Shown here: piece after piece, positions 37,645-40,226 of the stretch
How the letters are laid out: every line of letters begins with the position of its first letter
Position numbering within the stretch: position 1 is the first letter of the stretch
NCBI GenBank assembly: GCA_035547425.1
Contig: DASZUU010000050.1
Coordinates: 26,645-90,644, forward strand
DNA length: 64,000 nt
Origin: Alloacidobacterium sp.
GTDB taxonomy: Bacteria; Acidobacteriota; Terriglobia; Terriglobales; Acidobacteriaceae
Reading direction: 5' to 3'
Translations under genes and position numbers: made by a program
The notes under the pieces: model-generated
What the model was told of the DNA's origin: nothing
Seen by the model: only the letters and a program-made list of their open reading frames with translations
Databases searched by the model: none

Positions 37645-37704
37645 GACTTCCTGAAAATCGAGTTGCGTAATTGTAATGGAGAAAATCTACCGCGGTATAT
37701 CGTG

Positions 37705-38118
37705 CTAGTTTCGGATCATCCGCACCGCTTCCGCCGTCAAGGCAAAAACACCCAGCCCCAGACCGGCCACCAGCGCATAAACCGAACCATGCAAACACCT
37801 TAGACTAACATAAAGGATGGCTCCCGCGAAGAGCAGCCGCAGCACAAAACTGCTCGCCACCCGCCCTGTTCCCGGGCCTGCCTGCGAATTGTCCAGCCGC
37901 GCATTGATAAACGCCACCAGCCGCTGCCACTCCCATAAGCCTGTCGCCGATATCACCGCCCCCGCCGCCAGCAGCAGCCCCGTCTGCCAACCATAGATCA
38001 CGGTCAGTGCGACCGCCAGCACCAGGCCGCCAATCGCCGTCACCTTCAGTGCCCGGCGCAGCGCCACTTTCAGGTCAGCATCAGAAAAATTCAAAACCGG
38101 CTGGCTGTTCTCCGTCAC
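37705..38118 (-). CDS. atpI: ATP synthase I chain (AtpI)
   Basis: Four TM helices upstream of atpB; the GTG start at 38118 overlaps the atpZ stop (GTGA). Confidence 0.75.
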   Translation of the reverse strand: MTENSQPVLNFSDADLKVALRRALKVTAIGGLVLAVALTVIYGWQTGLLLAAGAVISATGLWEWQRLVAFINARLDNSQAGPGTGRVASSFVLRLLFAGAILYVSLRCLHGSVYALVAGLGLGVFALTAEAVRMIRN

Positions 38119-38378
38119 TTCTGCTCTTTCTCCGACGACGCCACCAGCCGGAAAATCTGCACAAACCCGGCCACCGCGCCCAAAATAATTCCAGCCAGAT
38201 ACATCCAGCCCTGGTGCAGCCACTTATCCAAAGCCGCCCCCGCCACCCATCCAACAAACACCGCCGCCGGCAAAATAAACGCGATCTGCGTCAGCTTCTC
38301 CGCCTTTAGCAGCGTTCCCATGCCGCCGTCATCGGGCCTCGTTCCATGCTTCCTCGGCGGAGGATTATTGAATGCCAT
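38115..38378 (-). CDS. atpZ: AtpZ/AtpI family F0 accessory protein
   Basis: GWVAGAALDKW...IILGAVAGF pattern. Confidence 0.82.
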   Translation of the reverse strand: MAFNNPPPRKHGTRPDDGGMGTLLKAEKLTQIAFILPAAVFVGWVAGAALDKWLHQGWMYLAGIILGAVAGFVQIFRLVASSEKEQK

Positions 38379-38531
38379 ACCGAAGGTTGTTATATCACCC
38401 GGGGAAGGGCACAAAAAAGCGGATGGCTGAAAGACGCCAAAGAGCGGTCAGCGGAAAACTGCCGGTAAATCTATGCGCCTTTCAGCCACCCGCTATACTG
38501 ACATTTACCACTAAACCACAGAGGCACCCAC

Positions 38532-40226
38532 GTGTTTGAATCCGAGTTCGAGCGGAATCTCTTTGCCCTCCGCCGCGACAAGTTGAACCAGATCACCGCT
38601 CTCGGCCAGCAGGCCTACCCTAACCAGTACATCGCCACCCACACCATCCCGGAAATCTGGGCGAAATACCGCGAAGCCACCGCCGAAGCCCTCGAAGCCA
38701 ACCGCATCGAAGTCTCCGTCGCCGGACGCCTCATGGCCATCCGCGGCCAGGGCAAGGCCGGATTCGCCCATCTCCAGCAAAACGGCGAGCGCCTGCAAAT
38801 CTACGTCCGCAAGGATGACGTCGGCGAGCCGGCCTTCCAGCTCTACAAGCTCCTCGACCTCGGCGACCACATCGGCGTCACCGGCTATCTTTTCCGCACC
38901 CGAACCGGCGAGCTCTCCGTACACGTCCAGACCATCACCTTCCTCTCCAAGGCCATGCTCGCGCTGCCGGAAAAATATCACGGCCTCGCCGATGTCGAGC
39001 TGCGTTACCGCCAGCGCTACGTCGATCTCTTCATGAATAGCGTGCTCAACGAAGGCGGCCTCGACGAGATCAACGTCCGCAGCGTCTTCATCAAGCGCGC
39101 CCAGGTGCTCAAGGCCATCCGCAATTTCTTCGACGCCCGCGGCTACATCGAAGTGGAAACGCCCATGATGCAGCCCATCGCCGGAGGAGCAGCCGCGCGC
39201 CCCTTCGTCACGCACCACAACACGCTCGACATGGACCTCTTCCTTCGCATCGCGCCCGAGCTGTATCTCAAGCGCCTTGTCGTCGGCGGACTCGACCGCG
39301 TCTACGAAATCAACCGCAACTTCCGCAACGAAGGCATCTCCACCCAGCACAACCCCGAGTTCACCATGCTTGAGTTCTACCAGGCTTACGCGAACTACCA
39401 CGACCTGATGGATTTGACTGAGGAGTTGGTTGCCTACGTCGCCCAGGAAGTAAATGGGACGACAGTTACGCATTTTATGCCCTCTAAGGATCCACGTCGC
39501 AACGAGGAAATTGTTGAGATTGATCTTGCAAAGTGGCAACGGTTGACTATGCGCGAAGCAATCATGAAATGGTGGAAAGGAGAAGACGGCCCTTGTCCTA
39601 CTGCCTTAACTTTTCAGAATGCTGAGTCCTATGTTCATTGGATAGAGAGTGTCTTATCATCTGATCACATTGGAGCCCAGTGGCTTGAGCAGCTTAGAGA
39701 TGGAAAGACTCCCAACTTTTCACCTCCAAATCTAAAAATTATCCATTACATTCTCGGGAAGATGCACTGGGAACCACTTCGTCGTGGCGCTCCGCTGGGA
39801 AAGTCGATTGCTGAACTTTTTGAGTTCATCGCCGAACCATATCTCATCCAGCCCACAATCATCTACGACTTCCCGCTAGCCGTCTCGCCGCTCTCCAAGC
39901 AAAAGCCCGACGAGCCGGACTGGGTCGAGCGCTTCGAGTTCTATATTGGCGGATTTGAAGTAGGCAACGCCTTCAGCGAGTTGAACGACCCCGAAGAACA
40001 GCGCAAGCGCTTCGAAGATCAGCTCAAGCAGCGCGAACACGGCGACGACGAAGCCCACCAGATGGACGAAGACTACGTCCGAGCCCTCTCCTACGGCCTG
40101 CCGCCCACCGGAGGCGAAGGCATCGGCATCGACCGCCTCACCATGCTCCTCACCGGAGCGCGCTCCATCCGCGACGTCATCCTCTTCCCCCTGCTCCGCC
40201 CCCAACAGGCCGACAAGGACGAATAG
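38532..40226 (+). CDS. lysS: Lysine--tRNA ligase (class II)
   Basis: OB-fold, [37 protein letters not shown]; enlarged AT-rich insertion domain. Confidence 0.97.

What the first reader, a model, noticed from the sequence alone, without database searches (positions are those of the whole stretch)
39400..39860. AT-rich, in-frame enlarged patch inside the essential lysS gene
Seen: lysS uses almost only C-ending codons (line 39241: 40/60 GC), but about 450 bp in the middle switch abruptly to T/A-ending codons (line 39601: 23/60 GC) with no stop or frameshift. A smaller patch recurs near 39941-39965. The patch covers the insertion domain between motifs 2 and 3 (DLMDLTE...IQPT, 152 aa), roughly 50 aa longer than I recall for E. 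coli LysRS. It has no intein termini. Inference: a hypervariable surface module replaced by recombination or local hypermutation, possibly under selection from a toxin, phage protein or antibiotic targeting LysRS, or a captured extra domain.
Basis: partly seen in the sequence, partly recalled or inferred. Interest (0 to 1): 0.65.

Follow-up and report, generated by a model that had tools for sequence, protein, structure and literature searches.

The report
Swapped hypervariable arm in lysyl-tRNA synthetase
The AT-rich stretch in this soil acidobacterium's only lysyl-tRNA synthetase gene is a translated, helical surface segment imported by recombination from a distant relative; related bacteria carry dozens of unrelated versions at the same spot, which is unusual for an essential translation enzyme.

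Summary
In lysS (38532-40226, +), third-position GC falls from 0.84 to 0.42 across codons 306-437 (nt 39447-39842). This is the strongest within-gene dip among about 1,900 long ORFs of the genome. The frame stays open, and an independent assembly carries the identical patch.

The patch is a mosaic tract of about codons 294-437. The flanks are 92-97% identical to same-genus lysS. The alignable shoulders beside the variable core are only 58-65% identical to the genus but 78% identical to an enzyme from another clade. That enzyme shares a 10-residue indel and the same 73-residue variable region. An AU test rejects genus monophyly on the shoulders (p=0.0011).

Across the family I found 38 unrelated variable-region types among 166 enzymes. 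Twenty of 31 pairs with at least 95% identical flanks carry unrelated cores. Some types recur in distant clades. Rare expanded types are AT3-rich, whereas an old conserved type is not.

Low GC3 is regional and does not track amino-acid conservation. No intein, repeat, known domain or RNA element was found. alaS of the same genome shows the same pattern. What drives the swapping, neutral turnover or conflict, is unresolved.

The parts
38532..40226 (+). lysS, class II lysyl-tRNA synthetase, 564 aa. It is the only LysRS gene found in the genome.
   Evidence: ORF. Pfam tRNA-synt_2 and tRNA_anti-codon. PDB LysRS matches down to E=1.6e-157. No second lysS and no class I LysRS.
39411..39842 (+). Mosaic (imported) tract, about codons 294-437: both shoulders plus the variable core.
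   Evidence: The first and last residues that differ from the genus but agree with L031 are D294 and P436. Nucleotide identity to same-genus L005 drops from about 0.9 to 0.3-0.7 and recovers after codon 436-450. The shoulder tree and AU test agree.
39447..39842 (+). Low-GC3 block (GC3 0.42 against 0.84).
   Evidence: Maximum-likelihood change points at codons 306 and 437. The 2-lnL intervals are 304-307 and 430-442.
39477..39515 (+). Insertion of about 10 residues in a beta-hairpin ([13 protein letters not shown]). It is absent from the genus, present in L031/P0003, and present in variant form in many other clades.
   Evidence: Alignments. AF2 places strands at 312-315 and 328-331. By residue offset this is the same site as the human LysRS insertion 371-381 (inference).
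39576..39794 (+). Variable-region core (K349-P421, type 'VR8'). Predicted helices 364-375, 379-389 and 403-417, with a Pro-rich loop at 390-402.
   Evidence: VR clustering. AF2 pLDDT is about 85-93 here in the full-length model. The only homolog is in P0002/P0003.
39798..39803 (+). Conserved G423-K424 anchor directly after the variable core.
   Evidence: G423 is invariant and K424 is at least 90% conserved in alignment A1.
39941..39965 (+).
   Evidence: Codon alignment with relatives.

Best explanation
Between class II motifs 2 and 3, LysRS has a small helical insertion. In Acidobacteriaceae this element has become a cassette-like 'expansion segment'. The basal form is a conserved stretch of about 40 residues. 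Many lineages carry unrelated, longer helical versions of 55-108 residues instead.

The window's gene holds one such version, VR8 (73 residues), together with its two conserved shoulders and a 10-residue hairpin insertion. This tract of about 430 nt (codons about 294-437) was brought into an otherwise genus-typical lysS by homologous recombination with a divergent lysS allele from outside the genus. The donor lineage is unsampled.

The AT-rich third positions are a regional DNA signature of that foreign or young tract. It has not taken on the strongly C-ending codon usage of the rest of this gene.

The segment is translated and probably folds as a helical protrusion. It sits beside the part of the catalytic domain that shapes the entrance for the tRNA 3' end.

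Shown: the composition break, the open frame, the hypervariability, the phylogenetic discordance and the cross-clade sharing of types.

Inferred: homologous recombination as the mechanism, the structural position, and the reason for low GC3.

Unresolved: whether fixation of new cassettes is neutral or selected.
For: Composition: GC3 is 0.42 against 0.84 with sharp change points. This is the most extreme dip in the genome.

Mosaic structure:
- Flanks are 92-97% aa identical to the genus, but the shoulders are only 58-65%. The shoulders are 78% identical to P0003/L031, whose flanks are 80-81% identical.
- L001 shares a 10-aa indel and a homologous variable region with L031.
- In the flank tree L001 sits inside the genus clade (SH-aLRT 99), while L031 is nested in a clade of a different VR type.
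- In the shoulder-only tree L001 and L031 are sisters (99/92). The AU test rejects genus monophyly (delta lnL 46.9, p=0.0011).

Family pattern:
- There are 38 VR clusters among 166 enzymes.
- Twenty of 31 pairs with at least 95% identical flanks have unrelated VRs. Types VR2, VR8, VR9 and VR10 each occur in separate clades. The flank tree needs 45 state changes against a minimum of 38.
- Different types share no DNA similarity.
- In type VR6 the synonymous divergence of the core (0.12-0.35) is lower than that of the flanks (0.47-1.0). The cassette is therefore younger than the genes it sits in.

GC3:
- Expanded VRs dip by 0.23 on average against 0.07 for short ones (p=2e-5).
- The old, conserved VR0 type shows no dip.
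- In the flanks GC3 is independent of amino-acid conservation.
- The VR's overall GC matches the genome's non-ORF GC of 0.45.

Translation and reality: the frame is open far beyond chance, and an independent assembly has the identical patch.
Against: - No donor was found. The best match to the patch is only 64% identical, and synonymous sites are saturated. The import is therefore inferred from phylogeny and is not seen directly.
- VR8 appears old and constrained (dN 0.44, dS saturated) yet is still AT3-rich in both carriers. A simple 'not yet ameliorated' account does not fully explain this.
- The AF2 full-length model is poor in the catalytic core (mean pLDDT 68), and the patch alone folds poorly without an alignment. 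The structural position rests on alignment to solved LysRS and a paper on the human enzyme.
- The dN/dS estimates come from three sequences of one cassette type.
Confidence: 0.7

Rival explanations
1. In situ fast divergence. The segment was never imported. It is a poorly constrained loop that drifted quickly under AT-biased mutation and lost codon optimisation because errors there are harmless.
For: dN/dS is about 1 in cassette VR6. The VR's overall GC (0.46) is close to the non-ORF GC of 0.45. Flank dS within the genus is about 1, so a neutral segment would be unrecognisable between species.
Against: - The shoulders are conserved protein sequence, yet they group with another clade, and the AU test gives p=0.0011.
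- L001 shares a 10-aa indel and a homologous VR with L031.
- GC3 in the flanks does not fall at poorly conserved sites: 0.76 overall and 0.81 in this gene.
- Even invariant shoulder columns are AT3-rich in L001.
- The core dS of VR6 is lower than the flank dS.
Confidence: 0.08
2. The low-GC3 block is kept by selection at the nucleic-acid or translation level. Possibilities are a rare-codon stretch that slows the ribosome for co-translational folding, an embedded RNA or promoter, or an overlapping gene.
For: The dip recurs in many lineages with different sequences.
Against: - Short and old conserved VR types show no dip, so the position itself does not require slow codons.
- No Rfam match comes near threshold.
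- All other frames are closed.
- 130 codons is far longer than known pause clusters (own knowledge).
Confidence: 0.05
3. Remnant or active selfish element inserted in frame: a mini-intein, an RPE/MITE-like coding repeat, or a DGR target.
For: AT-rich, in frame, at a fixed site, and present in some lineages but not others.
Against: - No Hint or intein domain, and no Cys/Ser...His-Asn termini (sequence).
- At 55-108 aa it is too short for an intein (own knowledge).
- No second copy of the patch in the genome at DNA or protein level.
- VR9 is found only inside lysS in 7 genomes.
- No direct repeats flank the patch, and the single 12-nt inverted repeat is at chance level.
- No phage or plasmid match.
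Confidence: 0.03
4. Assembly chimera joining reads of two co-occurring strains.
For: The genome is a 56-contig, 94%-complete assembly. Reads could not be checked.
Against: - An independent assembly of a 99.5%-identical strain has the same patch in the same context.
- The same architecture occurs in closed single-contig genomes, for example G010.
- The frame is intact at both junctions.
Confidence: 0.02

Closest known systems
Mosaic chromosomal genes made by interspecies homologous recombination (for example penA or pbp2x; see PMC10926701, PMC3241670)
   Same: A block inside a conserved essential gene has a phylogeny and base composition different from its flanks, with breakpoints in conserved sequence.
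   Different: No drug-target logic is evident here. The replaced block is a non-catalytic surface insertion whose alternative versions are not alignable with each other. It is not a diverged copy of the same sequence. No donor was identified.
Flagellin (FliC) central hypervariable domain between conserved termini (own knowledge)
   Same: The ends are conserved, the middle is hypervariable in length and sequence, the middle is lower in GC, and it is exchanged horizontally among relatives.
   Different: Flagellin is an exposed surface antigen with an obvious selective agent. LysRS is a cytoplasmic, essential enzyme with no known antagonist that binds this surface.
[quoted passage not shown]
   Same: The structural location is the same (by offset, human 371-381 and 417-438). 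The inserts are added helical or loop elements that leave the catalytic core intact.
   Different: The known insertions are stable, clade-wide characters. Here near-identical enzymes carry unrelated inserts, and the inserts move between genera.
Rickettsia palindromic elements inserted in frame in protein genes (own knowledge)
   Same: In-frame extra peptide segments tolerated on the surface of essential proteins.
   Different: RPEs are dispersed multi-copy repeats. The LysRS segments are single-copy, specific to lysS, and not palindromic.

Membership tests
Class II (IIb) lysyl-tRNA synthetase, LysS | N-terminal OB anticodon-binding domain plus the class II D/K/N catalytic domain | tested here: met
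   PF01336 at E=1.9e-14 and PF00152 at E=4e-89. Geobacillus, E. coli and T. thermophilus LysRS structures match at E=1e-124 to 1e-157. Foldseek top hits are all LysRS.
Class II (IIb) lysyl-tRNA synthetase, LysS | Conserved motif 2 (FRNEG) and motif 3 region intact; the gene is the cell's working LysRS | tested here: met
   Motif residues are invariant in alignment A1. It is the single lysS in the genome and there is no class I LysRS. Enzyme activity itself was not tested.
Mosaic gene by homologous recombination | The internal tract has a phylogeny that conflicts significantly with the flanks | tested here: met
   Flank tree against shoulder tree. The AU test gives p=0.0011.
Mosaic gene by homologous recombination | An identifiable donor lineage with a near-identical tract | tested here: not met
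   The best match to the patch among 5.8 billion proteins is 64% identical. The core alone has no hit among 1.84 billion representatives.
Hypervariable domain under diversifying selection (flagellin-like) | Conserved flanks with unalignable alternative cores among close relatives | tested here: met
   38 VR clusters. Twenty of 31 pairs with at least 95% identical flanks differ in type.
Hypervariable domain under diversifying selection (flagellin-like) | dN/dS significantly above 1, or within-species balanced polymorphism | tested here: inconclusive
   omega is 0.66-1.21 in VR6 against 0.06-0.08 in the flanks. The sample is small. The one within-species comparison shows an identical patch.
Intein | Hint domain; N-terminal Cys/Ser and C-terminal His-Asn followed by Cys/Ser/Thr; at least about 130 aa | tested here: not met
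   No Hint or intein Pfam hit. The boundary residues do not fit (sequence). The extra length is only about 50 aa.
Diversity-generating retroelement target | A template repeat elsewhere in the genome that is near-identical to the variable region | tested here: not met
   blastn and tblastn of the patch against the whole genome find only the patch itself.
In-frame dispersed repeat (RPE/MITE-like) | Multiple copies in the genome; terminal inverted or direct repeats | tested here: not met
   Single copy. No flanking direct repeats, and only one inverted repeat at chance level.

The most novel reading that the evidence does not exclude
The variable arm is a recognition surface in a genetic conflict. 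A phage protein, a toxin or another antagonist would dock on LysRS (and on AlaRS) beside the tRNA acceptor entrance. Lineages would escape by swapping in unrelated in-frame cassettes through the conserved shoulders. Essential aminoacyl-tRNA synthetases of many bacteria would then carry immune-like, recombination-shuffled modules. Earlier unchecked notes of this scan report the same pattern in HisRS, ThrRS, TrpRS, CysRS and AlaRS of other phyla.
Probability: 0.2. Interest if true: 0.85.

Novelty: new variant of a known kind. Interest (0 to 1): 0.6.

Why it matters
Aminoacyl-tRNA synthetases are textbook examples of conserved, vertically behaving housekeeping enzymes, apart from whole-gene transfers. 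Here an essential, single-copy LysRS holds a cassette-like module. The module differs completely between enzymes that are otherwise at least 95% identical, and it crosses genus boundaries. AlaRS of the same genome does the same.

If the turnover is selected, it points to an unknown antagonist or partner acting next to the tRNA acceptor entrance. If it is neutral, it is a clean natural experiment on how new folded helical sequence is born, tolerated and codon-optimised inside a highly expressed gene.

It also matters in practice. Such patches can mislead phylogenies, marker-gene trees and codon-usage-based HGT detection.

Tried and rejected
- Dispersed repeat or template copy: blastn and tblastn of the patch against the genome found only the patch itself. 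VR9 was searched in 7 genomes and found only in lysS.
- Frameshift relation between different VR types with near-identical flanks: no DNA similarity.
- Captured domain: no Pfam or PHROG hit. No hit among 1.84 billion representative proteins. No phage or plasmid match.
- Embedded RNA: only sub-threshold Rfam noise.
- Relaxed-constraint (translational accuracy) explanation of low GC3: rejected, because flank GC3 is flat across conservation classes.
- 'Intrinsic to the position' explanation: rejected, because the old VR0 type has normal GC3.
- AU test on 95 taxa with quick trees was uninformative because the free search was worse than the constrained one. It was repeated with 31 taxa and a careful search.
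- AF2 of the patch alone gave pLDDT 47 and was not used for a fold search. The full-length model has a poor core, so no 3D contacts were read from it.
- Literature searches found no description of this LysRS feature.

Full report
**The thing itself**

The window holds a 564-aa ORF at 38532-40226 (+). It is a class II lysyl-tRNA synthetase. It has the OB anticodon domain and the class II D/K/N catalytic domain. It matches solved bacterial LysRS structures at E=1e-124 to 1e-157.

It is the only lysS in the 3.94-Mb, 94%-complete genome, and no class I LysRS is present. The organism belongs to the Acidobacteriaceae, going by source names on homologs.

**Check of the observation**

GC3 is 0.80-0.95 in the flanks and 0.35-0.55 in codons about 305-430. 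GC at positions 1 and 2 does not change. A two-change-point likelihood scan puts the block at codons 306-437, nt 39447-39842. GC3 is 0.42 inside and 0.84 outside, with a log-likelihood gain of 43.

Codon choice flips inside the block. For Ile the flanks use ATC 23 and ATT 1, while the patch uses ATT 6, ATC 2 and ATA 1. Leu, Arg, Phe, Asp and Val behave likewise.

Genome-wide, the mean GC3 of long ORFs is 0.64. lysS shows the largest internal dip of all coding-like ORFs. The frame is open across 125 AT-rich codons, which happens in 0.055% of shuffles. All five other frames are closed. The segment is therefore kept translatable.

Against Geobacillus LysRS the enzyme has about 44 extra residues at 346-412 and about 8-10 more at 316-328.

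The second 'small patch' at 39941-39965 is ordinary synonymous variation in a conserved motif. Part of it is shared with relatives.

An independent assembly of a 99.5%-identical strain has the identical patch and three mismatches elsewhere in lysS. A chimera is therefore very unlikely.

**Relatives**

In 41 related genomes every lysS aligns over residues 1 to about 365 and about 415-560. Only a few align through the middle.

Alignment shows a basal, conserved form of the region: 40 residues between the conserved W348 and the G423-K424 anchor. Six species of the same genus and many other genera have this form. The window's gene and three other species of the genus (L002, L003, L006) each carry a different, longer sequence that cannot be aligned with the others.

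All four expanded forms have GC3 of 0.42-0.47 against flanks of 0.71-0.84. Two further genes fetched from metagenomes show the same dip. One of them (P0003) has a homologous core and the other (P0016) has an unrelated one.

Over 69 family genes with DNA:
- Short cores dip by 0.07 on average (n=28).
- Expanded cores dip by 0.23 (n=30). Twenty of the 30 dip by more than 0.2 (Mann-Whitney p=2e-5; the rows are not phylogenetically independent).

**Evidence that the tract is mosaic**

- The window's flanks are 92-97% identical in protein to same-genus genes.
- The alignable shoulders of the variable core (codons about 301-348 and 422-440) are only 58-65% identical to them. Other genus members are 68-91% identical to one another there.
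- The best shoulder match (78%) is P0003/L031, whose flanks are only 80-81% identical.
- L031 also shares the 10-residue insertion: [12 protein letters not shown] against PVPKDPRRNDEIA. Its variable core is homologous, 64% identical over the patch.
- Nucleotide identity to the closest same-genus gene falls from about 0.9 to 0.3-0.7 between codons about 290 and 440, then recovers.
- The first and last residues that follow L031 and not the genus are D294 and P436.
- In a maximum-likelihood tree of the flanks the window's gene sits inside the genus clade (SH-aLRT 99). L031 is nested in a different clade whose members carry another core type.
- In a careful tree of the shoulder columns alone, with the variable core excluded, the window's gene and L031 are sisters (99/92).
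- An AU test rejects a tree that keeps the genus together (delta lnL 46.9, p=0.0011).

For L002, L003 and L006 the shoulders remain genus-like. Their replacements are confined to the core.

**Family-wide behaviour**

BLAST clustering of the cores of 166 enzymes gives 38 clusters. Twenty of 31 pairs with at least 95% identical flanks carry cores of different clusters.

Types VR2, VR8, VR9 and VR10 each occur in enzymes whose flanks are only 73-84% identical. The flank tree needs 45 changes of type, where 38 is the minimum.

Different types in near-identical genes share no DNA similarity, so they are not frameshifted versions of one another.

For type VR6, carried by three related lineages, the core has dS of 0.12-0.35 while the flanks have 0.47-1.0. 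Core dN/dS is 0.66-1.21 against 0.06-0.08 in the flanks. The cassette is therefore younger than the genes around it and evolves with little constraint or under diversifying selection.

One large clade carries a conserved 67-residue type (VR0) with normal GC3. Expansion as such does not require AT-rich codons.

**Why the patch is AT-rich**

I tested three ideas.

1. Relaxed selection at unconstrained residues. This is rejected. In the flanks GC3 is 0.74-0.78 in every conservation class (0.74-0.88 in this gene). In the window's shoulders even invariant columns have GC3 of 0.36-0.54. The signal belongs to a stretch of DNA and not to individual sites.
2. A requirement of the position, such as slow translation. 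This is rejected, because short and old types show no dip.
3. Foreign or young DNA. This fits best. The core's GC is 0.56, 0.44 and 0.38 at the three codon positions, a mean of 0.46. That is close to the genome's non-ORF GC of 0.45. Rare or singleton types dip most.

One difficulty remains. VR8 is diverged to saturation at synonymous sites between its two carriers, yet it is still 51-64% identical in protein. It therefore looks old and constrained while remaining AT3-rich. Either its home lineage has low GC3 and is unsampled, or something keeps these cassettes AT-rich.

**What it is not**

- The patch has no second copy in the genome.
- It has no flanking direct repeats.
- It has no Rfam match near threshold.
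- The core has no Pfam or PHROG hit.
- The core has no hit among 1.84 billion representative proteins.
- It has no phage or plasmid match.
- There are no intein features (sequence).
- VR9 occurs only inside lysS in the seven genomes searched.

**Structure and likely role**

In the full-length AF2 model the region is confidently helical, with pLDDT about 85-93. Helices lie at 364-375, 379-389, 403-417 and 422-433, and a Pro-rich loop lies at 390-402. The catalytic core of that model is poor, so I read no contacts from it. The helices are amphipathic and the segment is close to neutral in charge.

[quoted passage not shown] R442 and K446, just after the last insertion, hold the acceptor arm (PMC11878792).

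By residue offset (motif 2 Arg is human 323 and R265 here), the window's 10-residue insertion corresponds to human 371-381. The variable core corresponds to about 417-438, and the conserved G423-K424 follows it. This mapping is an inference. It places the arm on the tRNA-acceptor side of the active site, pointing to solvent.

**A second case in the same genome**

The second strongest GC3 dip in the genome is in alaS (G000 C12:14842-17802, z=6.8; the next gene scores 4.9). Between EERQFARVLELG and GDKAFHLYDTYG, same-genus AlaRS carry 33, 71, 72, 102, 71, 85 or (here) 124 residues of unrelated sequence. GC3 there is 0.33-0.55 against 0.66-0.82 in the flanks. This genome's insert has no homolog among 5.8 billion proteins.

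Earlier notes of this scan describe the same alaS cassette in other soil Acidobacteria. They also describe similar arms in HisRS, ThrRS, TrpRS and CysRS of other phyla. These notes are unchecked leads. I verified only the alaS pattern, and only for this genus.

**Verdict**

Hypermutation and domain capture are not supported. The proposed selective agent is untested. I found no published description.

I class it as a new variant of a known kind: a mosaic gene or hypervariable domain, here inside an essential synthetase. Interest is moderate to high.

Noticed in passing
G000 contig C12:14842-17802 (outside the window); loci L076-L092: alaS of the same genome has the second strongest internal GC3 dip in the genome (z=6.8). 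It carries a 124-residue orphan insert at a site where same-genus AlaRS carry 33-102 residues of unrelated sequence.
   Followed up: partly
window 39039-39074 (codons about 170-181, [12 protein letters not shown]): A second variable site lies in the linker between the anticodon-binding and catalytic domains. The genus has a 10-residue insertion there with normal GC3. Other family members (P0020, P0022, P0025) have 30-50 low-complexity residues at the same point.
   Followed up: no
G005:C41:58-1572 (L105) and G005:C14:695037-696593 (L106): One same-genus genome assembly holds two full-length lysS genes of different clades, about 64% identical. The second lies on a 7-kb contig. It is either a true second copy, which would be a possible substrate for gene conversion, or bin contamination.
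   Followed up: partly
G174:C1:458726-460366 (L042): This lysS match aligns full length but is interrupted by one TGA and one TAA. It could be a pseudogene, recoding or sequencing errors. I did not examine it.
   Followed up: no
window 37700-38420 (minus strand) and loci L031, L034, L100: lysS is divergently placed next to the atpI/atpB/atpE (ATP synthase) genes in this genome and in distant family members. The mosaic tract therefore sits in a syntenic, vertically inherited neighbourhood.
   Followed up: no
About 0.7 such pairs are expected by chance in 800 nt, so I take it as chance.
   Followed up: yes
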